The notes under the pieces are model-generated. The model had not been told where the DNA came from and made no database searches. It worked only from the letters and a program-made list of their open reading frames with translations. Below, one piece after another: positions 4,191 through 37,050 of a stretch of 64,000 nt of DNA. Made by a program: the position numbers and the translations under genes. Origin of the DNA: Eledone cirrhosa (Eukaryota); NCBI GenBank assembly GCA_964016885.1, contig OZ024742.1, forward strand, positions 256,680,001 through 256,744,000, given 5' to 3'. Each line of letters starts with the position of its first letter. Positions within the stretch are counted from its first letter, which is position 1.

Positions 4191-5460
4191 TATCCTAGTA
4201 CCCACCTCCCATACTCTTTCACGCCAACCCACATGCACTATGTCCAGCACCATTTGATGACTTTCTCGACTACACCCACTCACACTTTTACATAGAGACA
4301 CAAACACTTACATATGTCGTTAATTAGTTACACACACATGACGTTACATACTTAATTTTACTAGCTCTATTAATTAACTTATTAATTTAAATAACACAAC
4401 TCTCTCTCACACCAACATATATGCACTACCACCAAAACTATTGGACCAATTATCCTAACCCAACCACTCACATGCTTACAATAGACACACCAATATATAT
4501 ATATATATATACACATATTTGATTTTAATAACACTATTAATTAATCAATAAATGATACTAACAAGACAATCTATTCTACGACGTTTCAAACTTATACTAT
4601 CAGTAGACACACACATATAAACATAGCATCACCAACACCACCTCAAATCATCACAACAGCTTGTCCTCACACTCACCCTTGATATTAACTTACCCTTGAA
4701 ATTAACCTATCCCATTCTGCGTCACCACCAGCTTCAGAGCCAAACACTTCCTTGACTACACACAGAAACCCCACCAAGTTCCCGTCCCTGGAAATTTCCT
4801 GAAATAGTACAGCTTGGACATCAACAAACCATTCCTTCGGGATTTATGCCACGCACGGATAGAGACAGCCATACTTGTTGATACACATGCACACAGAAAA
4901 CCACTCACATACACAAAATAATATCCGCATGAGACTCGAACAAGCATACCCATACCCATACACACATAAACATACACACACTCAATAAAAGGCATAGCCT
5001 ATACAGACACCCATAAGGAATGCACACCCGCATATGCACATTCACTCCTAAAAATACACATACACAAACACACAAATATGTACAAACACGCACACAAAAG
5101 TCCATTAAAAATCACAGATACACACATGCGTCCACATTCAGTAATACATAAACATACATACGCACGCACACCTTTACAAACAAGCACACATAGAACTGCA
5201 GACAACACACGCATATTTACATTAACTAAACTCAAATCACACACGTGGTCTCTCCGCCTCACCAATTATCTCGGCACTACTCACCTACGATCCTCACTCG
5301 TCGTAATTTCATTCCAACAATCTCTCTCTGAAATTTCCTCTTACCTGATCCGATACGTTGAGACATGATTACTTCCTGTTTCACTTTTCTTCATCTTCCT
5401 TCCCAACGTGAAGCTAAGAAGACTTTGTATTTTCCATCCCTCTGTATGTCTCGTTTATCC

Positions 5461-5491
<31 letters not shown>

Positions 5492-5688
5492 GTACATACA
5501 TATACGTATACAGACGTACAGTAGTATGTATATATATATATACATACATGCACACATATATATATATGTACGTACGGATTCACCGAACATTTATTATAAT
5601 GCTCGGTGTGTTTGTAAACAAACATCCCGTATTAAGCCGTAGTGTCCTGCAACTATCGTTGCTCGTTTGTTCAACACTGACAAAGGTA

Positions 5689-5729
5689 CGCTGTACTGGT
5701 TTCAAGCTTATTAGCTATCGTCAGCAATG
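5689..5729 (-). ncRNA. Minimal type I hammerhead (R1)
   Basis: Reverse complement: cattg CTGACGA tagctaataagctt GAAA ccag TA cagcg; one stem I mismatch. Confidence 0.75.
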
Positions 5730-6273
5730 TATACCTTCCTGCCAGATTGTTGAACGTATATACTTACCTTATGCATATTAACACCTGAGAAGCCCAATTT
5801 GCATATCGAGTGGGTTAATCGGCCGGGTGCACCGAAAACGATAAACGGAAAAAATGAAACGAAATTTCATTTCCCAATCTTAGTACGGCTGTTACTTAAG
5901 TATATGTATGTACACGTACATACATATATGTATACAGGCGTACAGTAGTATGTATATATATATACATACATGCACACATATATATATATGTATGTTGTGG
6001 ATTCACCGACCATTTATTATAATGCTCGGTGTGTTTGTAAACAAACATCCCGTATTAAGCCGTAGTGTCCAGCAACCATCGTTGCTCGTGTACATATTTA
6101 TATTTAAGTAAAGGCCGTACTAAGAGTGGGAAATTAAATTTCGTTTCATTTTTTCCGTTTATCGTGTTCGGTGCACCCGACCGATTAACCCACTCGATAT
6201 GCAAATTGGGATTCTCAGCTGTTAATATGCATAAGGTAAGTAGATACGTTCAACAACCTGGCAGGAAGGTATA

Positions 6274-6314
6274 CGTTGCTGACGATAGCTAATAAGCTTG
6301 AAACTGGTACAGCG
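6274..6314 (+). ncRNA. Minimal type I hammerhead (R1)
   Basis: cgttg CTGACGA tagctaataagctt GAAA ctgg TA cagcg. Confidence 0.8.
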
Positions 6315-6704
6315 TTCCTTTGTCATGTTGAACAAACGAGCAACGATGGTTGCTGGACACTAAGGCTTAATACGGGATGTTTGTTTACAAACACACTGAG
6401 CATTATAATAAATGTTCGGTGAATCCATACGTACATATATATATATATATATATATGTGTGCATGTATGTATATATATATACATACTACTGAACTTCTGT
6501 ATACATATATGTATGTACGTGTACATACATATATTTAAGTAACAGCCGTACTAAGAGTGGGAAATGAAATTTCGTTTCATTTTTTCCGTTTATCGTTTTC
6601 GGTGCACCCGGCCGATTAACCCACTCGATATGGAAATTGGTCTTCTCAGCTGTTAATATGCATAAGGTAAGTATATACGTTCAACAATCTGGCAGGAAGG
6701 TATA

Positions 6705-6745
6705 CGTTGCTGACGATAGCTAATAAGCTTGAAACTAGTACAGCG
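6705..6745 (+). ncRNA. Minimal type I hammerhead (R1), palindromic stem III ACTAGT
   Basis: cgttg CTGACGA t-agc-taataa-gct-t GAAA ctag TA cagcg; GUA triplet. Confidence 0.88.
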
Positions 6746-7130
6746 TTTCTTTGTCAGTGTTGAACAGACGAGCAACGATGGTTGCTGGAGACTACGGCAT
6801 CATACGGGATGTTTGTTTACAAACACACCGAGCATTATAATAAATCTTCCGTGAATCCATACGTACATATATATATATATATGTGTGCATGTATGTATAT
6901 ATATATACATACTACTGTACGTCTGTATACATATATGTATGTACGTGTACATACTTATACTTAAGTAACAGCCGTACTAAGATTGGGAAATGAAATTTCG
7001 TTTCATTTTTTCCGTTTATCGTTTTCGGTGCACCCGGCCGATTAACCCACTCGATATGCAAATTGGGCTCCTCAGGTGTTAATATGCATAAGGTAAGTAT
7101 ATACGTTCAACAATCTGGCAGGAAGGTATA

Positions 7131-7171
7131 CGTTGCTGACGATAGCTAATAAGCTTGAAACTAGTACAGCG
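7131..7171 (+). ncRNA. Minimal type I hammerhead (R1)
   Basis: Identical to the motif at 6705-6745. Confidence 0.88.
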
Positions 7172-7432
7172 TTCCTTTGTCATGTTGAACAAACGAGCAA
7201 CGATGGTTGCTGGACACTACGGCTTAATACGGGATGTTTGTTTACAAACACACCGAGCATTATAGTAAATGTTCGGTGAATCCATACGTACATATATATA
7301 TGTGTGCATGTATGTATATATATATACATACTACTGTACGTCTGTATACACATATGTATGTTCGTGTACATACTTATATTTAAGTAACAGCCGTACTAAG
7401 AATGGGAAATTAAATTTCGTTTCATTTTTTCC

Positions 7433-7470
<38 letters not shown>

Positions 7471-7476
<6 letters not shown>

Positions 7477-8405
7477 AAAATTTCGTTCCACATCACTGAA
7501 TACAATATATGTAATCTGAGATTTTCGAATATTAAGAATAAAATTTGATTCGTTTGCAATTATGCAAACAAGCCTCAATTGTATAGCCAAGTGAGTAGAA
7601 TGAACACTCCATTCTTGCTTTTGTGTTGGCATGCGAACAGAACTGCAGACACTAATGTTCTGGGTATCACCTTTCATCAGTACAGCTCACTGTTCACCTG
7701 CCAAACTGTTAGAGCTAGTGAACATATATGCTATTTTCAAAAATACACAGTCACTGGTCGGCTTGATATGCATATTAACAGACTGGCTGATCAGTAAGAT
7801 CTGCATATTAGCAGATCCACTGATCAGCCATATTTGCATATCAGCAGACTGGCCAGTCAGTTTCCTGCATACGAGCGATAAATAGGCGGCTTTGCCAAAT
7901 TCAGAATAACAAAGAAAAATGAAGGGTTCGTTCTACTGACATGACAATAACATTGAGGCTTGTTTGCATAATTGCAAACGAAGCGTATGTTATTATTGAT
8001 ATTCGGAAAACACAGATTACATTCATTGTATTCAGCCTTGTTGAGCGAAATATTTTTATTTTATTTTGAATTTGGCAAAGTCGGCCATTTTACGCTCGTA
8101 CACATGAAACTGACTAGCCAGTCTGCTGATATGCAAATCTGGCTGATCAGTGGATCTGCTAATATGAGTATCTAACTGATCAGCCAATCTGCTATTATGC
8201 AAATCAGGCCGATCAGTCACTGTGAATGTTTGAAAATAGCATATGTTTCCACTAACTCTGACAGTTTGGTAGGTGAACATTCAGCTGTACAGAAACATTA
8301 GTGTCTGCAGTTCTGTTCATATGCCAACACAAGAGCAAGAATGAAGTGTTCATTCTACTGACATGGCTATAAAATTGCGGCTTGTTTGCATAATTGCAGA
8401 TTACA
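7471..8405. mobile_element. Retrozyme-like element R2: ~440-nt monomer; minus copy 7471-7919 plus terminally redundant plus copy 7920-8400
   Basis: 7920-7978 recurs at 8341-8398; arms are reverse complements; HHR at 7640-7688(-) lacks one A of GAAA; plus copy has the core deleted (~8290). Confidence 0.8.
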
Positions 8406-8420
8406 TATATTATATATATA

Positions 8421-8463
<43 letters not shown>

Positions 8464-8497
8464 CACAATGATTCTTCAAGCAAACTTCAATACTCTT

Positions 8498-8537
<40 letters not shown>

Positions 8538-8637
8538 ATTTGGGACATTACGTTACTATTGGTTCACTAACTGGCTTAATATAGTATTTTACATTTGGTG
8601 TCATAATGTGGTCGGGTTCCTTCATAAGCAGTCAGTT

Positions 8638-8860
8638 AATAATGATTTCCTATATAGGCACAAGGCCAGCAATTTTGGTGGAAGGGAAAGACGATTAAAT
8701 CGACCCCCAGTGCGTGTCAGGTTCTTTATTTTATCGACCCTGTAAGGATGAAAGGCAAAGTAAACCTTGGCGAATATTTGAACTCAGATCATAAAAGGCC
8801 GTAACTTTATGCTGCAAAGCATGGCGTCCGACCCTCTACCAATACTGCCAATCCACCGCC
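8638..8860 (-). mobile_element. tRNA-derived SINE (Octopus-type), full length
   Basis: Minus strand: A-box-like tggcagtattgg, B-box-like gagttcaaat, body ctttcatccttacagggtcgataaaataa, AT-rich tail; five related copies in window. Confidence 0.85.
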
Positions 8861-9753
8861 TGTGTGTTAATAATAATGATTACTAAGAACGAGTTGCCAA
8901 AGTATCATTAAATGTATTCCGGTGACACCTGGTTCGCGATTGATCATCTCATGTCGTGATCCCAATTTATCGCGCCCGATTGTGGAATCAGTACCTCATC
9001 AGACTCATGGTTTACTTAATGATAAGAGATATGCGCTTTCTGCTTTAAAATACCATTATATATTATATTTCATACACGCAATAAGAATTGGTGTAGCTTA
9101 GGTTTCAAGGCGTAGGTTTTTCACGAAACACAGACTGTACACGGGGTGCAGAATGCATGATAAACGGTGCAGCGCTAGTCTTAATTCGTGATGCACGGAG
9201 TAAATGTCAAAAGGAGATATAATTATGAGGTCCAGCGTGGGAAGGATCTACAAGCCAGAAAATGTGTTCATCCGTTTTCTAAGGCAGGCAACTCTTCTGT
9301 AAACACCAACTGTTATGAGGTGTGTGTTTCACTGTCGGTGTGTCGTTTTGCTGTCAATATTTAGAGTTTATTAGTAGCGTTATGTAGAGAAAACACAAAG
9401 AAAATTACAAAGCTTATCAGCAAAGAAAAAGTGGTATGCAAAAATAAGAGTTAATGTGTTGGAACTATCGAAAATATAGAACTACGGTTCACTGGATATC
9501 GTGTGCGTAGCTCTTCCTTTGTGAAATCTTGTTTTTTTTATTCCGATTGACGTTAAATTGGCATTGGCTTCCGTGTTCGTATAAATCATACCGGAAACAT
9601 AGGCAAACCACCATGCGGATGCCTCTGATACCTAAGGCACCGCAATATACCCGTAGGAATCACAATAATAAATTGGATGTTTTGCTCTAGATAGACCGTG
9701 TTTTTACATTTTCCTTCCTCTGGATAATTTATATACATATAATTATGTAATAA

Positions 9754-9952
9754 ACAACATAAGACAATTATTCCATTTACCAAAGATTACACGAAGACAG
9801 ACGAGCGCAACAGGGACGTCTGAAATCGCTCATTAGAATGAACATTTATTAAATTTATAAAATGTTCATTCTGATGACGATTTCAGACGTCTTTGTTGAG
9901 CTTGTCTGTCTTCGTGTAACCTTTGGTAAATGGAAGAAATGTCTTATGTTGT
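9754..9952. repeat. ~200-bp imperfect foldback (arms ~95 bp), MITE-like
   Basis: acaacataagac...catt(a)gaatgaacattt versus aaatgttcattctgatgac...gtcttatgttgt. Confidence 0.8.
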
Positions 9953-10025
9953 GTATTGCTTAATTAAATAGCTCGGTAGCATACATAGAGCACTCTCCTT
10001 TTCTATACCCTTCCCACGGAAATAC

Positions 10026-10082
<57 letters not shown>

Positions 10083-10559
10083 TGTACGAACAAATATTTT
10101 TCTTCACCAGAGTGGCAACCCATATGACTATTGTATATGAACGTATTATATATCTGTTGATTAACACCTCTATCATATTTAAACCTTGTTTTATTGGTAC
10201 CACCAATTGAATATATCCACATTAATGCACACTATATGAAATCATTTGCATATAGTGCGTCTCTATCACGAACAGCTGCTATTCACAGACTGCGGGAGGA
10301 AACTAATTCGCTATAATCGCACAAGCCAATATACATATATGAGTTTCAAGGTGTAAACAAATTACACATCATATATTTATTGCCGCTTTCATTCATTCGT
10401 TCCGCCACCATCTTTAGATATACTGGCAGAAGAAACGCTACGGGCGGTTTTCTATTAGCATATATAGTGTGCATGTTGGTATTATATGCAAATGTATATG
10501 CATACAGATATATGTAAATTGCAAGTAAATTGACGATATCTTCTTCGCCCACTTATTTC

Positions 10560-11000
10560 TGAGAAGCTCTTATGGCAGAGTCCTACTCAAACACTCCTTA
10601 TAGTGAGTCTGTCAGAAGCAAACATCTCTAACTGATCCAGCTGAATCCCAAACTGTGACCAGCCAAGCTAAGGGATGTTATCCAACTATCTTGCTCGGAG
10701 TCTGTCTACCTCTGGGTCTCTAGCCGGTTGGATTTGCCTGTAAAATCTGTCCACAGATTCTTAACTGTGACATTCTAACCACATACCCATAGTATCGGAG
10801 TTGTGATCCCTCAATTCGGTGTAGTAGCGGTTCTACCAGAGGTGACTCTCTGATCTCTGAGCTATGCACTTTACCGAGTAATGTTACTCCAAAACCCTTC
10901 TCCAGCATTCCATCACTCATGAACACGGGACCGAGATACTTGACCTTCTCTACCTGCTTCAATAGAAATTCATTCCTATGTATATAAATTTGAGAGACTT
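10560..11000 (-). mobile_element. RTE-clade LINE 3' fragment
   Basis: LKQVEKVKYLG..SDG...IRE...VEPLL.RIE.SQLRYYGYVVRM...PTG*RPRGR. Confidence 0.8.
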
Positions 11001-11169
11001 CTGTCCATCCGTCCATCACACAATGTGTATGTGTGTTTGTGTGAATCTATGTGAGTGTAAATGGAAAGAAGGGGATTCACATAGGTATGTCTCTAACTTA
11101 AAAGCAGTGCACACACACACGTGTTCCTAATTTAAAACGCCGATGAACTTACGCACGCACGCATATGCC

Positions 11170-11610
11170 CACTGTCCTATTACCACTTAAGAGATTTGGG
11201 CCGGGCAAACATCCCCTCAATTTTAGAACCGTCATGGTTGTCCAAAATTGATGGGAAAAGACTTAACGGTCTTGCCTTGTGCTCCTGGTCAAGAGGCAGG
11301 TGCTTTATCGGGGACGACACAGTTAGTGACTCTTTTGCTTTTTCCCACAGCCTGGATGCAGCGGTAAGGCCGAAAGCAACAGCATCCGCAACTGAACGGA
11401 ACAAAATCCTAAAATATAGTGTTTTGTCAGCTAACTACATTATCCAGCCTGTGGCGTTCAAGACGTTTGGGGGAGTTCGGCTACTGACAGCGAGGTTCTT
11501 CACTAGCGGCTCCCAAATCAGAGGTAACTGGTGATGTTCGTGAGGGCACTTGGTTGTTCCAGCACCTCACCCTGGCCATCACCCTAGGTAACGGTGCGAG
11601 CGTGCAGGCT
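11170..11610 (+). mobile_element. CRE-clade non-LTR element, restriction-like endonuclease C-terminal fragment
   Basis: LEPSWLSKIDGKRLNG...WSRGR..DDTVSD...TERNKILKY..L...PVAFKTFG, then LFQHLTLAI.LGN in another frame. Confidence 0.75.
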
Positions 11611-12167
11611 TGACTCAAAAACTATTAAAGAGGTTTCACAGTTCTCGCTATATTGTTATATTTTCCTCTGGTAGCGGCTCATTTGCCCACTCCTTTCGTT
11701 TGCATTTTGTTCCATGTGCTCTAAGACGTATGTATTACGTGCTTGTGTGTTTTCTCTTTCTTTTGTGTATATTATATTTGTTTATGTCTTCGTTCTCTAA
11801 TCATTATATCAAATTTTTATACAAATGAGTTTAAAACAGAAGTGCTACACTGTTAATAATTAAATAAAACGTTGTACTTCATGTTATTCACTAATTTCCA
11901 ATTTATCTAACGCGCTGTCATGACTGTATGACTGCATGAGTGTGTATTTGTGTTTATGTAAACGTATGCGTGAATGTATGTATGTGTTTGTGTGAAAGTA
12001 TATGTATTTGTGTGAATGTACGTCCGTGAGCGTCTATTTTTGTAAGTTTATGTGTTTGCGCGATTAGAGTTATATAATCATACATATAAATATATGTATA
12101 TGCACATACACACACGCACACACATACACATACGCCTCAGTCTGTTGAAAAAAATCCTAATCTCTTC

Positions 12168-12320
<153 letters not shown>

Positions 12321-12566
12321 TCGGTGTCATCATAGTCACTGTATCTATCTGTATCTATATCATCACACACACTCTCTCATTCTCGCTCTGTCTATATATA
12401 TGCTGTTGGTGGCAGCGATATACCGGAGGTGTAGAAATTTGAAAATTGTAAATGAAGTCTTTTTTAAAAGAACAAAAAAGCAATAAAACTATTTATATTT
12501 AATCAATAGTTACGAAATTTAGTACATAAATTATGTCATATTCATTCATTATTTATACAAAGCCAA

Positions 12567-12762
12567 AATAAAGTACCAGTAATGTACTGGGTTATTGCTG
12601 GTCTTGTGCCTAAAGTAGAAACAATTATTTATACAAAGCCATTCTGAGTTCAAATCCCGCCGAGGTTAACGTTGCCTTACATCATTACGGGGTCGATAAA
12701 ATAAAGTACCAGTGATCTATTGGGTAATTGCTGGCCTTGTGCCAATAGTAGAAACAATTATT
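12567..12762 (+). mobile_element. 5'-truncated SINE with a duplicated 3' part
   Basis: gagttcaaatcccgccgagg...ggggtcgataaaataaagtacc; tail ttgctggccttgtgcc..gtagaaacaattatt present twice. Confidence 0.8.
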
Positions 12763-13331
12763 TATTCAAAGTAAACTAACTTATTTTACTAACGGGATTA
12801 AAAAATATAAAAAGGACACTGTCCCGCAGTCCTCTATTTATTATAGTATATATATATATATGTAAGTATATAATGTATCTACATTTGTTATGATATTAAT
12901 ATAGTTTTACATGCTCACTCTTAGATAAACAAGGATTACCGCAAAATACGACGTTGACATAAATATCTTAATGTTAAATTCTATATAAACATATGCTACC
13001 TGGTAACCGTTATTCATGTCTATTCTTGCGCTTAAGAATGACTACGCCATACGCATTCGTAAATAGACGCACTCACGCAAACTTCTCTCTCTCTCTCTCT
13101 CTCAGTATATATATATATACTTACGGTAAACATTGATGCAATTCAAATCAAGCACTCAACATATTTTTTCCACATAGGAATGACAGTATATATTTAGAAT
13201 GAGGATGTGCGAAGTAGTTTCAAATGTTAAAGTCCTTTATTGATAATACTGTGATACATATTTCGATGACGACAGTGGCCACACGATTACGTGTACCCAG
13301 TGCGATGACATTAATAGACAGCTTCTTATAT

Positions 13332-13415
13332 AATTGTTTCTACTTTTGGCAAAAGGCCAGAAATTACCCAGTGTGTTACTGGTACTTTATGTTATCGACA
13401 CCGTAAGGATGAAAT
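13332..13415 (-). mobile_element. SINE 3' fragment
   Basis: Matches the 3' end of the copy at 21645-21830. Confidence 0.7.
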
Positions 13416-14062
13416 GCAAATTTAAACTCGTTCCAGAGGCAATCCAAACAGAAACGACAAGGAAACGAACAAGGCACGTGTTCTTGAATCCCTCGGCCGT
13501 TCCCCTGTATACATATACGTACATACATATATGTATACAGACGTACAGTAGTATGTATATATATACTTACATGCACACACATATATATGTACGTATGGGT
13601 TTACCGAACACTTATTATAGTGTTCGGTTTATTTGTAAACAGACATCCCGAATTAAGCCGTACAGTGTTTATCAAGCATCGTTGCTCTTTTGTTCAACAC
13701 TGGCAAAGGAACGATGCACTAGTTTCAAGCTTATTAGCTATCGTCAGCACCGTAAACCTTCCTGCCAGATGATTGAACTTCTGAAAGTATATACTTTCCT
13801 TATGCATATTAATGGCGGAGCAGCCTAATTAGCATATCGAGTGAGTTAATCAGCCGGGCGCACCGAAAACGATAAATGGAAAAAATGAAAGGAAATTTCA
13901 TTTCTAACTCTTAGTACGGCTGTTATTTAAATATTCCATTTATCGTTTTCGGTGCGCCCGGCCGATTAACTCACTCGATATGCAAATTAGGCGGCTCAGC
14001 CGTTAATATGCATCAGGAAAGTATATACTTTCAGACGTTCAATCATCTGGGAGGAAGGTATA

Positions 14063-14103
14063 CGGTGCTGACGATAGTTAATAAGCTTGAAACTAGTACA
14101 TTG
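14063..14103 (+). ncRNA. Minimal type I hammerhead (R1 subfamily b)
   Basis: cggtg CTGACGA tagttaataagctt GAAA ctag TA cattg. Confidence 0.82.
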
Positions 14104-14504
14104 TTCCTTTGCCAGTGTTGAACAAAATGGCAACGATGGTTGCTAAACACTGTACGGCTTAATTCGGGATGTTTGTTTACAAACAAACCGAACATTATAA
14201 TAAGTGTTCGGTAAATCCATACGTACATATATATATATATATTTGCATGTATGTATATATATATATATACATACTAGTGTACGTCTGTATACATATATGT
14301 ATGTACGTATACATACTTATATTTAAGTAACAGCCGTACTAAGAGTGAGTCAGAAATGAAATTTCGTTTCATTTTATCCATTTATTGTTGTCGGTGCCCC
14401 CGGCCGATTAACTCACTCGATATGCAAATTAGGCTGCTTAGCCGTTAATATGCATAGGGAAGGTATATACTTTCAGACGTTCAATCATCTGGCAGGAAGG
14501 TATA

Positions 14505-14545
14505 CGGTGCTGACGATAGCTAATAAGCTTGAAACAAGTACATCG
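14505..14545 (+). ncRNA. Minimal type I hammerhead (R1 subfamily b)
   Basis: cggtg CTGACGA tagctaataagctt GAAA caag TA catcg. Confidence 0.82.
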
Positions 14546-14685
14546 CTCCTTTGCCAGTGTTGAACAAAAGGGCAACGATGGTTGCTAAACACTGTACGGC
14601 TTAATTCGGGATGTTTGTTTACAAACAAACCGATCATAAAAATAAGTGTTCTGTAAATCCATACGCATATATATATATATATATA

Positions 14686-17032
14686 TGCAAAAGTTTTATT
14701 TAAGATTGTTGGGTTACAACGAGTAAATATTTTATAACTGATATAAAAGCACTCAACAGTTTCTGGAGTAGGTTTACGATATTAAACAAATGGAAACTAT
14801 ATTTATAAAACCATATTTATTTCGTTATATATATTTCTGGGATATCATATTAAAAATATGTTATGCCTTCCTCGGACAAATTACAATACATAAGCTGTTT
14901 TATAAATAATTAGTGACATACCTTGTAATAATGCAACTTCCTTTTAAAACGTTGATTTGGTAATGAAACTGTTATGATAGTTATATAGAAAGAAAACGAA
15001 ATGAGAAGAAGAAGATGAAGAGATGTATGTAAATAAAAAAGAAGAAGATGAAGAGATGTATGTAAAGAGAATAGAGATGTATGTAAAGAAAAACAACGGA
15101 GCGAGATAGAGAGACAAGGATAGAGGGAAATACATTGATGGTGAAAAAAACATAGTAGGCTTCTTTTTGACAGATGATCATCGTATATGTGAGAGGTTAA
15201 GGGAAGGGATACAGTTAGATTAGTGTATAGGAGAAAAAGAAAGAAAGATGATATATTTAAAATATATTAAAAATATATTATGTCTCATCCATTTGAATTA
15301 TCAATTTTTATGAATTAGGCATTATAATGTAAATATCAGTATTCATGAATGAGACACATATCTATAATGTGTAAAAAAATGACCACATGCTCAGTTTAAA
15401 AATTCTTAGGTCTATAAGCAAAATCTGAGACAAAACTTCAAACATAAGTATATATGCATTCTCGTGAAAAATGAGAAAAGAGAAGGTTATCTCAAATTCA
15501 AGTTGATAAATATAGACGCACATGTGAACCTACGTGATACGCTGCACTGATTCTTATATTTCATGAAAAACTTCAATGTGTCAGAAAAGAAAAACTTCAA
15601 TGCGTTAGAAAAGATTCCACCCTACATATATTTACATACATATATACATATATATAGACACAAAACATATAAGATATACATTAACATCTAAAATAATCAT
15701 CGATCAAGCATAGAGTAGACAACAGATATCAATATTAAAATTAAAAACGCCAAGAATATCTTCGTCACTCCTCAGAGTATCTAGGGACGCAAGAGAACAT
15801 AGTATGCCACGCATATCGGTCATAGAATCAGAGTCAAAAGTAAACAAGACCAAAATTGCTCACCAAGCCTTATCTATCAGAAATCATTCAAAACTTATTC
15901 TACAAATGCTCTTATATTTATTATAGAAGTTTATCCAGCTTAAAAATTTATTCAAAAGATTGGGAACAACGCCAATTTTAGGGTAGTTTATTTAATCTCA
16001 TTAATTATATATTCATGCGGAAAGGTTTTAAAAAAAAAAAAAAAAATTGAAGGAATCGAAAGATTTATCGCCAACTATCACAAATAGTCAAATACCTTAA
16101 GTAAATATACTACATTTTATACTACATTTTAAATTTATATTTATATTTAAATGTTGAGTTCAATCTATGTCTGCAACAGCTGAATAAATTGGTTCGTAAA
16201 TTAAGGGAATTTTTTGATTTTAATATAAAGAATATCTCCTCCGCGCAGAGGTCACAAGTCTCAGAAGAGGAATTAAAAGGAATCCCTTTTGAGACTATAT
16301 TCCAAACCATCGAATATCCAACTTTATCATGCTTAAGTTGCCAGAGTAACCATGACAGCGATGTTGATGATTTTTTATTTGGATCCTTGAAAGAATTTTT
16401 GTGATTATTATAGCGAAGTTTAAATTCTGTCGAGGTGGAACCAACATAATTAAAAGAATTTAAATCAGTTCTAACATTACAGTTGTATATTATATTTTTA
16501 ACTAAGCAATTGTTATTTAGCGGACATTTAGATCTATCTCTCCAGTTACAGTTTTTTAGTTGAATATTGTTTAGGCTATTTTCGGTATTTTGGCTAGGTT
16601 TTAGATTCCTATTATTTATTCTATTAATATTTTGTGCTAAATTTTTGGTGGACGAGTACGTTAATTTTATAGTATGTCTATTAAAAATTGAGTGATACTT
16701 ATGTGTTCTAGGGAAGCGTTTGTTAAGAGCATTAAAAAATAGTTTAGCGATGTGGGCTTTAATGTTTAGTGAGAAAGGGGGGGCAAACCATATTATATTT
16801 CTAGTTCTATTTCTTTTCTGGTTTTTGAAATTATTGTAGTGCTTTCTATTATAGTTGTTAAAGTTGTTACTGTAATTAAAATTGTTGTTATTTTGGTTAG
16901 TTTGTCTATTATCGATGTACATAATTTTATCACTATATCCTGCTCTAGCTAAAGCATCATTATAATATTAGGCTTTTTCGTCAAAAATATTTTTATTGGA
17001 AGAGATTCTAGAGATACGTTTTTGAACAGAGT
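14686..17032 (-). mobile_element. 5'-truncated PLE (thumb + GIY-YIG + ~1.4-kb 3' UTR)
   Basis: Contains ORF 16122-16922; degenerate HHR (CCGAGGA core) at ~14818-14885; (TA)n flanks. Confidence 0.85.
16122..16922 (-). CDS. PLE C-terminal region with GIY-YIG endonuclease (truncated)
   Basis: WFAPPFS..IFNRHTIKLTYS..CNW..CPL..CL..NIIY.C..YVGST..FK.RY.NH..CDLC.EE..LN..CCRH. Confidence 0.88.
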   Translation of the reverse strand: MYIDNRQTNQNNNNFNYSNNFNNYNRKHYNNFKNQKRNRTRNIIWFAPPFSLNIKAHIAKLFFNALNKRFPRTHKYHSIFNRHTIKLTYSSTKNLAQNINRINNRNLKPSQNTENSLNNIQLKNCNWRDRSKCPLNNNCLVKNIIYNCNVRTDLNSFNYVGSTSTEFKLRYNNHKNSFKDPNKKSSTSLSWLLWQLKHDKVGYSMVWNIVSKGIPFNSSSETCDLCAEEIFFILKSKNSLNLRTNLFSCCRHRLNSTFKYKYKFKM

Positions 17033-21834: not shown

Positions 21835-23078
<1,244 letters not shown>

Positions 23079-36364: not shown

Positions 36365-37050
36365 CGGATAAATGGCCGGCTTTGTCACATTCAAATAGAA
36401 AAAAAAATTCCGCTCTACATGGCTGATTACAATAAATGTAATCTGAGATTTTCGAATATAAATAACAACTTTCGATTCGTTTGCAATTATACAGACAAGC
36501 CTATTTTATTTTTTATAGCTATGTCAGTAGAATAAACCCTTCATACTTGCTCTTCTGTTGGCATGTAAACAGAACTACAGACCCTAATGTGTCTGGGTAT
36601 CACCCTTCATCAGTACAGCTCACTGTTCACCTGCCAACTTTGCCGGCCCTTTATCGCTCGTATGCAGGAAACTGACTGGCCAGTCTGCTGATATGCAAAT
36701 CTGGCTGAGCAGTGGATCTACTAATATGCAGATCTGACTGATCAGCCAGTCTACTAATATGCATATCAGGCCGATCAGTCACTGTATAGTTTAGAATATA
36801 GCATATATTTTTACTAGCTCTGACAGTTGGCAGGTGAAGAGTGAACTGTACTGATGAAGGGTGATACCCAGAAACATTAGTGTCTGCAGTTCTGTTTACA
36901 TGCCAACACAAGAGCAAGAATGAAAGGTTCATTCTACTGACATGGCTATACAAATGAGGCTTGTTTGTATAATTGCAAACGAATCGAATCTTATTATTAA
37001 TATTTATTATATTTATTATATTCAGCCATGTTGAGTGAATTTTCTTTTAA
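36365..37050. mobile_element. Second R2 insertion (minus arm 36365-36640, plus arm 36641-37050)
   Basis: Homologous to 7471-8405 but starting at a different point of the monomer. Confidence 0.82.
36843..36892 (+). ncRNA. Canonical type I hammerhead (R2)
   Basis: gaactgta CTGATGA a-gggt-gat-accc-a GAAA ca-ttag-tg TC tgcagttc; 8-bp stem I, GUC triplet. Confidence 0.92.

What the first reader, a model, noticed from the sequence alone, without database searches (positions are those of the whole stretch)
13507..14668. Independent R1 subfamily with a paired double change in HHR stem I
Seen: array 1 has stem I cgTtg/caGcg (U.G); array 2 has cgGtg/caTcg (G.U). Both partners changed while pairing is kept, and the core is identical despite many substitutions elsewhere in the monomer. 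The inversion breakpoint differs (13934 versus 6088), so these are separate insertions. The inverted copy has an uncleavable GUG triplet. Inference: selection on ribozyme structure in an actively spreading family.
Basis: partly seen in the sequence, partly recalled or inferred. Interest (0 to 1): 0.75.

Follow-up and report, generated by a model that had tools for sequence, protein, structure and literature searches.

The report
Hammerhead repeat with compensated stem change
This stretch is an old insertion of a 426-base repeat carrying a hammerhead ribozyme motif, a kind of element already known from animal genomes; its two-letter swap in one ribozyme stem keeps the pairing and likely reflects selection on the lineages that spread, not on the inserted copies.

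Summary
Array 2 (13507-14687) has cgGtg/caTcg (G.U) where array 1 has cgTtg/caGcg (U.G); the inverted copy reads GUG at the cleavage triplet; the inversion junctions differ.

The repeat has about 26,000 copies in this 3.0-Gb genome. It has the anatomy of an animal non-LTR retrozyme: a roughly 426-bp AT-rich monomer with a type I hammerhead, a 2-bp helix III inside a palindrome, and insertions into (TA)n built as inverted-plus-direct partial tandems, as Penelope-like elements make.

The pair has three paired states genome-wide: U.G 4370, A-U 1723 and G.U 975 exact copies. The mismatched combinations total 250. A second stem I pair also shows a compensated change.

- Fixed differences between the two subfamilies are about 2% both inside and outside the ribozyme.
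- Single-locus mutations hit the ribozyme as often as its flanks (1.07% against 1.09%).
- The window's arrays are old.

Constraint is therefore visible only among propagating lineages, and modestly. Cleavage, circular RNA and the mobilising element are inferred. This is a new member of a known kind, and compensatory changes between hammerhead families within one genome are already in print.

The parts
13507..13934 (-). Array 2, inverted monomer. Monomer positions about 14-426 plus a few bases of the next unit; its own 3' end faces outward (left).
   Evidence: blastn layout (13934->13520 = monomer 14-426); inverted repeats I3 and I4.
13698..13768 (-). Hammerhead motif of the inverted copy. Stem I pair is G(13750)/U(13714). 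The triplet is GUG with G17 at 13717, so this copy is predicted to be uncleavable.
   Evidence: Sequence. The H17 rule (any base but G) is established hammerhead knowledge.
13934..14305 (+). Array 2, first direct monomer, 5'-truncated (monomer 67-426).
14047..14117 (+). Hammerhead motif. Pair G14065/U14101; predicted cleavage between A14098 and C14099. Two C>T changes, each leaving a G.U wobble.
14306..14687 (+). Array 2, second direct monomer (monomer 1-368). It ends inside the monomer's own TA-rich part, which is an atypical 3' end.
   Evidence: 3' end at 368; the usual ends are about 76 or 426.
14489..14559 (+). Hammerhead motif. Pair G14507/U14543; predicted cleavage between A14540 and C14541. 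The loop III palindrome is broken (ACAAGU).
5493..6089 (-). Array 1, inverted 1.4 monomers. Hammerhead at 5675-5745 (-), pair U5727/G5691.
6087..7438 (+). Array 1, 3.2 direct monomers ending at monomer position 76. Hammerheads at 6258-6328, 6689-6759 and 7115-7185. Pairs are U/G at 6276/6312, 6707/6743 and 7133/7169.
7436..7471 (.). (TA)18 directly after array 1; (TA)n also lies before it at 5461-5486. This is the microsatellite target of the insertion.

Best explanation
Window 13507-14687 is one old insertion (one inverted plus 1.9 direct monomers) of a roughly 426-bp, roughly 26,000-copy repeat that carries a type I hammerhead motif, and that likely is a non-autonomous 'non-LTR retrozyme' predicted to be copied into (TA)n microsatellites by Penelope-like element enzymes.

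Shown:
- The motif has all core letters (CUGANGA ... GAAA ... GUA^C).
- Helix I is 6 bp, then an internal loop, then a distal stem. Helix II is 4 bp with an AAUA loop. Helix III is 2 bp inside the palindrome ACUAGU.
- Copy numbers, subfamilies and insertion anatomy.
- The stem I position has three paired states.

Inferred from the published behaviour of such elements, not tested here:
- Multimeric transcripts would fold two neighbouring hammerheads into a dimer through the palindrome and cut at GUA^C.
- This would yield unit-length RNAs that a host tRNA ligase would circularise.
- A Penelope-like reverse transcriptase/GIY-YIG nuclease would copy them back by target-primed reverse transcription. 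That would leave inverted 5'-truncated pieces and partial tandems.

The U.G to G.U difference between the two window arrays marks two subfamilies. Only RNAs that keep stem I paired appear to have founded large families, so the constraint likely acts on the propagating RNA. Once inserted, copies decay freely, which is how the inverted copy acquired G17.
For: Motif:
- 7 cores in the window against 0 expected.
- Full-length alignment to Rfam Hammerhead_HH9, model positions 1-77, 20.2 bits, E = 0.0048 on 121 nt.
- Folds of six 71-mers recover helix I, its extension and helix II.
- The unit-length RNA folds at -124.3 kcal/mol, z = -4.18, bettered by 0 of 100 shuffles.

Abundance:
- 25,888 matches to ACGNTGCTGAN{24}GTACANCG, reversed-pattern control 0.
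- 13,735 matches to a 16-nt anchor outside the ribozyme.

Pair states:
- Exact 41-mers: U.G 4370, A-U 1723, G.U 975; UxU 146, AxG 59, GxG 45. That is 7068 of 7318 paired.
- Sample not selected on the ribozyme: 88 of 92 copies paired.
- Logan contigs of run X1: 6707 T>A 24% and T>G 12%; 6743 G>T 46%.

Covariation on 104 distinct 71-mers:
- 95.6% of cells paired against 93.3% in shuffles (0 of 500 shuffles reach it).
- Covariation score 0.113 against 0.072 (0 of 500); slid controls reach at most 0.059.
- Second compensated pair 6697/6751 (AU 72, UG 5).
- Pair 6692/6754 shows GU 68, GC 21, AU 13.

Simulation and family comparison:
- 9 random changes leave the motif intact in 34 of 200,000 trials, yet the two most divergent families differ at 9 ribozyme positions and both are intact.
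- Core plus helices II/III: 0 of 24 fixed differences against 49 of 235 elsewhere, p = 0.011.

Insertion anatomy, 111 whole insertions:
- 51 are inverted plus direct, 59 direct only, 1 complex.
- 3' ends cluster at monomer 60-76 (61 of 110) and 423-426 (38 of 110), running into (TA)n.
- This matches the Penelope-type structure and (TA)n bias described in PMC8557442 (passages read).

Other:
- GIY-YIG domains are abundant: 10,597 first-look candidates, 150 of 150 scored above the cut-off.
- No ORF with a Pfam match lies in the array.
- GC is 0.34-0.40.
Against: - No Rfam family reaches its gathering score. HH9 scores 20.2 against the 52 bits required.
- The helix II closing pair is UxU, not the highly conserved G10.1-C11.1, so catalytic competence is uncertain.
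- Helix III has only 2 bp and a 2-nt loop. A monomer is unlikely to cleave.
- Between the two subfamilies in question, the ribozyme is not better conserved than the rest: 2 of 68 against 5 of 246 columns, and 2 of 57 against 16 of 264.
- Single-locus variants are equally dense in ribozyme and flanks. A smaller sample of 49 copies gave 0.86% against 1.39%, p = 0.034.
- At the 5% frequency level in X1, the ribozyme has 3 polymorphic places in 69 nt against 9 in 192 nt outside. That is no depletion.
- 'Pairs with a change on both sides' (2) is reached by 452 of 500 shuffles.
- A mismatch-bearing family (AxG at 6697/6751, the A/T family) amplified to more than 1700 copies, so pairing is not strictly required everywhere in stem I.
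- No similarity to the repeat was found in 18 Penelope-like loci examined, apart from TA-rich tracts. The mobilising element is unidentified.
Confidence: 0.75

Rival explanations
1. It is an ordinary satellite or dispersed tandem repeat whose hammerhead-like motif is a fossil or a coincidence. The two-letter swap is a chance pair of substitutions that hitch-hiked with two subfamilies.
For: - The score is below threshold in Rfam.
- UxU sits at 10.1/11.1.
- The ribozyme is no better conserved than the rest between the two subfamilies.
- Private mutations are as dense in the ribozyme as elsewhere.
- Long satellite-like arrays exist, for example hits about 856 bp apart over 18 kb on C1.
- The swap rests on one double event at this pair.
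Against: - All core letters and the three helices are in place in about 26,000 copies.
- There are three paired states with 96.6% paired.
- A second compensated pair exists.
- The nine fixed differences between the most divergent families all fall in tolerated or compensated places, against 34 of 200,000 random trials.
- Another repeat family in the genome has the same ribozyme design but different helix letters and a different palindrome, ACGCGU.
- Fixed 3' ends, 5' truncation and inverted pieces show retrotransposition, not only unequal crossing-over.
Confidence: 0.1
2. The copies are not a separate non-autonomous family. They are detached pseudo-LTR pieces (5'-truncated ends) of one autonomous Penelope-like element that carries this hammerhead in its terminal repeat.
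For: - Penelope-like elements carry hammerheads in their pseudo-LTRs and insert as 5'-truncated partial tandems with inverted pieces (PMC4209133 and PMC8557442, passages read).
- GIY-YIG domains are very abundant here.
- Hammerheads of similar design (CUGAUGA-U-UUCU...AGAA-U-GAAAC) lie next to Penelope-like ORFs (L129; window -58990).
Against: - None of the 18 Penelope-like loci examined is similar to the repeat outside TA-rich tracts. That is only 18 of more than 10,000 candidates.
- Arrays of up to about 9 whole monomers contain no ORF.
- The monomer closes on itself as a unit-length fold.
Confidence: 0.12
3. The paired change comes from a mutational mechanism such as template switching or gene conversion within the inverted repeat of the stem, not from selection on RNA structure.
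For: The two positions lie in a DNA quasi-palindrome. Insertions are full of inverted copies that could serve as conversion templates.
Against: - Correction of a quasi-palindrome would produce a Watson-Crick complement (T/A or C/G), not G/T from T/G. That is an inference from the known mechanism.
- T/T, G/G and A/G intermediates exist as scattered single copies.
- Trees on non-ribozyme columns place T/T leaves near the splits between families, though with weak support of 0.48-0.86.
Confidence: 0.03

Closest known systems
Animal non-LTR retrozymes (Cervera and de la Pena 2020, PMC7229834, abstract and passages read; Li, Clavereau and Pollet 2026 preprint 10.64898/2026.07.22.740005, abstract and Results read)
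   Same: - Tandem repeats of about 170-450 bp with a type I hammerhead.
- Low GC, no LTR and no ORF.
- Thousands of dispersed and tandem copies.
- Co-occurrence with Penelope-like elements.
- Hammerheads with a short helix III that need a dimer.
   Different: - No RNA evidence could be obtained here for linear or circular forms.
- The helix II closing pair is UxU (CxA in one small family), not G-C.
- The family itself matches nothing I could compare it with, so whether it is already catalogued is unknown.
Hammerheads of Penelope-like elements, and the canonical metazoan type I design (Cervera and de la Pena 2014, PMC4209133, passages read)
   Same: - Helix I of 6 bp and helix II of 4 bp.
- Helix III of 1-2 bp capped by a 2-4 nt palindromic loop, with a proposed dimeric active form in tandem repeats.
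[quoted passage not shown]
   Different: - That paper lists the G10.1-C11.1 pair as highly conserved. It is absent here.
- Here the motif sits in a short ORF-less repeat, not in the terminal repeat of a coding element.
Penelope-like element insertion structure (Craig et al. 2021, PMC8557442, passages read)
   Same: - 5' truncation and partial tandems.
- An inverted 5'-truncated copy at the 5' end.
- Bias for microsatellite targets, including (TA)n.
   Different: The (TA)n bias is described there for Naiads, which lack canonical hammerheads. Which clade, if any, moves this repeat is unknown.
Rfam Hammerhead_HH9 (RF02275)
   Same: Alignment runs end to end with the same order of helices and core.
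   Different: 20.2 bits against a gathering score of 52. HH9 has a 3-bp helix III with a 5-nt loop and a G-C pair closing helix II.

Membership tests
Hammerhead ribozyme, type I | Conserved core C3 U4 G5 A6 N7 G8 A9 ... G12 A13 A14 ... A15.1/U16.1, with H17 not G | tested here: met
   CUGACGA ... GAA A ... GUA^C in 6 of 7 window copies. The seventh has G17.
Hammerhead ribozyme, type I | Three helices around the core, with helix I open-ended | tested here: met
   cmscan structure alignment. Folds recover helices I and II. 95.6% of 1768 pair cells are standard pairs.
Hammerhead ribozyme, type I | Score at or above the Rfam gathering threshold for a hammerhead family | tested here: not met
   0 matches at gathering. 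Best is HH9 at 20.2 against 52 bits.
Hammerhead ribozyme, type I | G10.1-C11.1 pair closing helix II | tested here: not met
   U/U in all main families. C/A in a small family.
Hammerhead ribozyme, type I | Self-cleavage after position 17 | not testable with these tools
   Needs transcription of dimeric constructs.
Animal non-LTR retrozyme | Short (about 150-450 bp) tandem repeat unit carrying a type I hammerhead, with low GC | tested here: met
   Period 426, 3.2 copies. Array 2 period is 442. GC is 0.34-0.40.
Animal non-LTR retrozyme | No LTR and no coding capacity | tested here: met
   The longest mechanical ORF is 164 aa with a TTG start and has no Pfam match. PBS and PPT were not looked for.
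Animal non-LTR retrozyme | Expressed as unit-length linear and circular RNA | not testable with these tools
   No run usable for this could be laid.
Penelope-like-element-dependent insertion | Fixed 3' end, variable 5' truncation, partial tandems, adjacent inverted 5'-truncated copy, microsatellite target | tested here: met
   111 whole insertions: 51 with an inverted piece. 3' ends lie at monomer 60-76 (61) or 423-426 (38) of 110. (TA)n follows. A few overlapping loci are counted twice.
Penelope-like-element-dependent insertion | An autonomous partner that shares the 3' end or terminal repeat | tested here: inconclusive
   GIY-YIG domains are abundant. 18 loci were examined and showed no similarity beyond TA-rich tracts.

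The most novel reading that the evidence does not exclude
One genome preserves a stepwise compensatory walk in a ribozyme helix: G.U, then a rare UxU intermediate, then U.G, with A-U as a side branch. Family copy number serves as a natural read-out of fitness. All of this occurs in a hammerhead class that has replaced the near-universal G10.1-C11.1 pair by UxU or CxA and may still cleave as a dimer. If the motif is active, the A9/G10.1 metal site would be dispensable in a natural hammerhead. The 26,000 copies would then form a ready-made fitness landscape for it.
Probability: 0.15. Interest if true: 0.5.

Novelty: new member of a known kind. Interest (0 to 1): 0.28.

Why it matters
The value is mainly as annotation. 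This repeat, its many relatives in the genome and its odd inverted/direct arrays can be labelled as a hammerhead-bearing retrozyme-type element that inserts into (TA)n. They need not be treated as unexplained satellites or assembly artefacts.

The family also gives a clean teaching case. Constraint on an RNA motif shows among the lineages that propagate (three paired states, compensated changes, untouched core), while the inserted DNA copies decay neutrally. Naive 'conserved despite divergence' arguments drawn from two copies mislead.

The UxU closing pair of helix II is the one feature a ribozyme specialist might want to test.

Tried and rejected
- RNA evidence: the look-up of sequencing runs listed no RNA holder. 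Nothing can be said on expression, ends or circles.
- Rfam at E <= 10 over 5000-15500 gave 169 matches. The 150 listed are low-complexity miRNA-like hits in the TA/TG-rich part of the monomer, all far below gathering, and I treat them as chance. No hammerhead was among the 150; 19 were not shown.
- Earlier scan notes: nothing for this genome or for this sequence.
- Autonomous partner: 18 GIY-YIG loci (10, 8 fetched) showed no similarity to the repeat. The search was abandoned as too large, with more than 10,000 candidates.
- Family-level depletion tests depend on filtering, so I quote them as a range only:
  - 0 of 24 against 68 of 271 columns, p = 0.002. This is biased, because 60 loci had been picked by an exact 41-mer that covers the core.
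  - 0 of 24 against 104 of 240. This is inflated by non-homologous flanks.
  - 0 of 24 against 29 of 240, p = 0.087. The filter left almost only one family.
  - A first version of the private-variant test gave 2.0% against 12.2%. I rejected it as an artefact of sub-family structure and unaligned flanks, and replaced it with the singleton test.
- Trees on non-ribozyme columns suggest a history. The G/T-AATA type is central, the T/G clade derives from it with a T/T leaf at its base, and the A/T grade leads to the G/T-AACA families. Deep branches have support of 0.0-0.86 and the rooting is by midpoint, so I do not rest on the order of events.
- The depth peak over the ribozyme in X1 might mean it is the part shared by most families. 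The tool warns that contig depth cannot rank parts, so I did not use it.
- Read laying failed three times with the machine busy before answered.

Full report
**What is there**

Window 13507-14687 is built from a roughly 426-bp unit that also forms a larger array at 5493-7438 (Tandem Repeats Finder: period 426, 3.2 copies, 93% matches; repeat families).

A blastn layout gives the following:
- Array 2: an inverted monomer (13934 down to 13520 = monomer positions 14-426), then two direct ones (13934-14305 = 67-426; 14306-14687 = 1-368).
- Array 1: 1.4 inverted monomers (6089 down to 5493), then 3.2 direct ones ending at monomer position 76 (7438). (TA)n runs lie on both sides.

**The motif**

Seven copies of CTGACGATAGCTAATAAGCTTGAAAC lie in the window; none is expected by chance. 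Read as RNA, the neighbourhood is a type I hammerhead:
- Helix I: ACGUUG/CAGCGU (6 bp), an internal loop (UAU/U), a distal stem GAAGG/CCUUU, and a further extension CUGGCA/UGYCAG.
- Core: CUGACGA.
- Helix II: AGCU/AGCU with loop AAUA, closed by UxU.
- GAA, then helix III: A-U and C-G around UA, which makes the palindrome ACUAGU.
- Cleavage triplet: GUA before C.

Rfam finds nothing at gathering scores. On a 121-nt piece, Hammerhead_HH9 aligns end to end (model 1-77) at 20.2 bits against the 52 required, E = 0.0048.

Folding six 71-mers recovers helix I, its extension and helix II. The unit-length RNA from predicted cut to predicted cut folds at -124.3 kcal/mol, z = -4.18.

This is the 'canonical metazoan' design described by Cervera and de la Pena 2014: helix I 6 bp, helix II 4 bp, helix III 1-2 bp with a small palindromic loop, thought to act as a dimer in tandem transcripts (passages read). 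It differs from that description in lacking the G10.1-C11.1 pair.

**The observation**

It holds letter for letter.
- Array 1 has U at 6707 and G at 6743, and likewise in its other copies.
- Array 2 has G and U (14065/14101, 14507/14543, and 13750/13714 on the minus strand).
- The inverted array 2 copy has G at position 17 (13717). Established hammerhead knowledge says that blocks cleavage.

**How big the family is**

The window lies at G000:C3:256680001-256744000 in a 3.0-Gb assembly.
- A pattern that fixes only helix I and the cleavage region finds 25,888 places, against 0 for the reversed pattern.
- A 16-nt anchor outside the ribozyme finds 13,735.
- Logan contigs of several differently labelled organisms hold parts of the repeat.
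- Of those laid, one contig of organism C carries the G/U, N7 = U, loop AACA form.

**The pair genome-wide**

Exact 41-mers in the CTGACGA/AATA context:

| State | Copies |
|---|---|
| U.G | 4370 |
| A-U | 1723 |
| G.U | 975 |
| UxU | 146 |
| AxG | 59 |
| GxG | 45 |
| UxU with N7 = U | 12 |

So 7068 of the 7318 copies in the six counted combinations are paired, in three different pair states. The A-U state came to light only through the laid contigs (6707 T>A 24%, T>G 12%; 6743 G>T 46%).

Other samples agree:
- In the first 100 places I tallied by hand U.G 47, G.U 42, A-U 9 and UxU 2.
- For a sample not selected on the ribozyme, I fetched the first 100 anchor places. Eight had no recognisable ribozyme, being insertion edges or deletions. 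Of the other 92, 88 were paired: U.G 64, A-U 19, G.U 4, C-G 1. The remaining four were AxA 2, UxU 1 and AxG 1.
- This anchor misses the large G/U, N7 = U, AACA family.

**More covariation**

Families defined by pair, N7 and loop II are visible.

Across the main variants, the distal stem I pair 6697/6751 goes from A-U (U.G family), to AxG (the A/U family and the G/U-AACA family), to U.G (the G/U, N7 = U family). Pair 6698/6750 goes from A-U to G.U. Pair 6696/6752 goes from G.U to A-U.

On 104 distinct 71-mers (123 unique among 176 instances; 19 dropped for more than 5 differences from all seven main variants), the counting tool gives:
- 95.6% paired cells against 93.3% in shuffles (0 of 500).
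- 32 cells changed on both sides against 10.6 (0 of 500).
- Covariation score 0.113 against 0.072 (0 of 500), with slid controls at 0.059 or less.
- The number of pairs with a both-side change (2) is reached by 452 of 500 shuffles. The tool itself warns that related sequences can beat shuffles without any structure.

With the helix I extension included, pair 6692/6754 shows GU 68, GC 21, AU 13, other 2.

A different repeat family met by chance (L053:309-379, L098:4626-4696) has the same design. It has other letters in helices I and II and another palindrome, ACGCGU. That fits a dimeric helix III.

**Is this selection?** Three levels have to be kept apart.

*(a) The two subfamilies of the finding.* Their fixed differences are few and evenly spread. 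Using the 70% majority rule, they are 2 of 68 ribozyme columns against 5 of 246 elsewhere. An earlier version gave 2 of 57 against 16 of 264, p = 0.75.
Array 2's monomers are only 85.5-89.1% identical to one another, and array 1's are 90.9-95.6%.
- An unchanged core is therefore expected here and proves nothing.
- What is unlikely is that the only two ribozyme differences are partners and still pair: 862 of 200,000 random trials.

*(b) Inserted copies.* In the anchor sample, variants seen in a single locus are as dense in the ribozyme (42 per 3942 sites, 1.07%) as in the flanks (141 per 12926, 1.09%; p = 0.93). In the core plus helices II/III they are 12 per 1379 (p = 0.58).
- A smaller, earlier sample of 49 copies had suggested a deficit: 0.86% against 1.39%, p = 0.034.
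- On balance the inserted DNA is not constrained.

*(c) Propagating lineages.* Between the most divergent families, the core and helices II/III have 0 of 24 fixed differences against 49 of 235 elsewhere (p = 0.011). Two related comparisons give p = 0.018 and 0.031, and these are not independent.
- The nine ribozyme differences between the U.G-AATA family and the G/U, N7 = U, AACA family are two compensated pairs, two wobble-compatible single changes, N7, loop II and the internal loop.
- Nine random changes leave the motif intact in 34 of 200,000 trials.
- At a 5% frequency cut-off in X1, the only variable places inside 6689-6757 are 6707, 6714 (N7), 6743, and 6748 (private to the window copy). 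Loop position 6724 was listed at 18%.
- The density of such places is no lower than outside: 3 in 69 nt against 9 in 192 nt.
- Filter-dependent versions of this test are listed under Tried and rejected.

I conclude that constraint on the ribozyme among founders is likely but only modestly demonstrated. It is also not absolute: the A/U family amplified to more than 1700 copies with an AxG mismatch in distal stem I.

**How it moves**

Of 111 whole insertions in the fetched loci, 59 are direct only, 51 have an inverted piece at the 5' side, and one is complex.
- 3' ends fall at monomer 60-76 in 61 of 110 and at 423-426 in 38 of 110. In both cases they run into (TA)n.
- 46 of 110 pass a strict TA test on the first 20 flanking bases.
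- A few overlapping loci are counted twice.

Fixed 3' ends, variable 5' ends, partial tandems, adjacent inverted 5'-truncated copies and microsatellite targets are the published signature of Penelope-like elements (PMC8557442, passages read).

GIY-YIG domains are very abundant here: 10,597 first-look candidates, with 150 of 150 scored above the cut-off. Some long frames (up to 1096 aa) lie at such loci. None of the 18 loci I examined resembles the repeat, so the partner is not identified.

A 2026 preprint argues from vertebrate genomes that animal non-LTR retrozymes derive from Penelope-like pseudo-LTRs (abstract and Results read). Cervera and de la Pena 2020 showed expression, dimer-dependent cleavage and ligase-mediated circularisation for such elements in other animals (abstract and passages). 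Those steps are inferred here, not shown.

**Novelty**

The class, the design of the ribozyme, the insertion structure and even the presence of 'covariations and compensatory changes' between hammerhead families of one genome (PMC4209133) are all in print.

What may be particular here is the UxU (or, in a small family, CxA) pair in place of G10.1-C11.1. The three-state pair with rare mismatch intermediates is also unusually clear.

I searched the paper library once. I did not search for this specific family, and the supplements of the bioRxiv preprint are closed, so I cannot say whether this family is already catalogued.

**Verdict**

This is an ordinary but well-preserved example of a known kind of element.

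Noticed in passing
window 25794 (+), 23262 (-), 30340 (-): Three copies of another hammerhead-like motif: CTGAYGA, a long helix II, then GAAAC-ATT-GTA/GTT followed by AGC. The helix I arms are complementary. This looks like a second ribozyme-bearing repeat family in the window.
   Followed up: no
window 36851 (+) and 58990 (-): At 36851 there is a canonical-looking type I hammerhead with a GUC triplet, CTGATGA-AGGGTGATACCCA-GAAAC-ATTAGT-GTC, flanked by a perfect 8-bp helix I. At 58990 (-) there is a motif, CTGATGATTTCTAATGAATGAAAC, like one found upstream of a Penelope-like ORF in L129.
   Followed up: partly
L053:309-379 (+), L098:4626-4696 (+): A different repeat family whose hammerhead has the same design as the one studied: U/U closing helix II, loop AACA or AATA, and a 2-bp helix III. 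The helices use other letters and the palindrome is ACGCGT instead of ACTAGT.
   Followed up: partly
L141, L143, L165, L184 (anchor sample): A small subfamily of the studied repeat with C and A in place of U and U at positions 10.1/11.1 (both sides changed), N7 = U, and a GUU triplet instead of GUA.
   Followed up: no
window 53028-58862, 42109-43766, 49180-50636, 59726-61780, 21836-23078: Very long TA-rich microsatellite tracts, up to 5.8 kb. This is the same kind of sequence into which the repeat inserts.
   Followed up: no
G000:C1:51775040-51793012: Exact ribozyme 41-mers spaced about 856 bp apart (two units) over 18 kb. This is a satellite-like array with a two-unit higher-order period, alongside the dispersed short insertions.
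   Followed up: no
window 7467-8415 and 36684-36781: Another repeat with long inverted arms (I6, I13, I17) and 33-bp tandem units (7765-7853, 8122-8219, 36684-36781). It is unrelated to the hammerhead repeat.
   Followed up: no
window 12565-12771 and 8706-8767 / 13367-13428: Short dispersed repeats just upstream of array 2 (D10 and D12). The 13367-13428 copy lies about 80 bp before the array's left edge.
   Followed up: no
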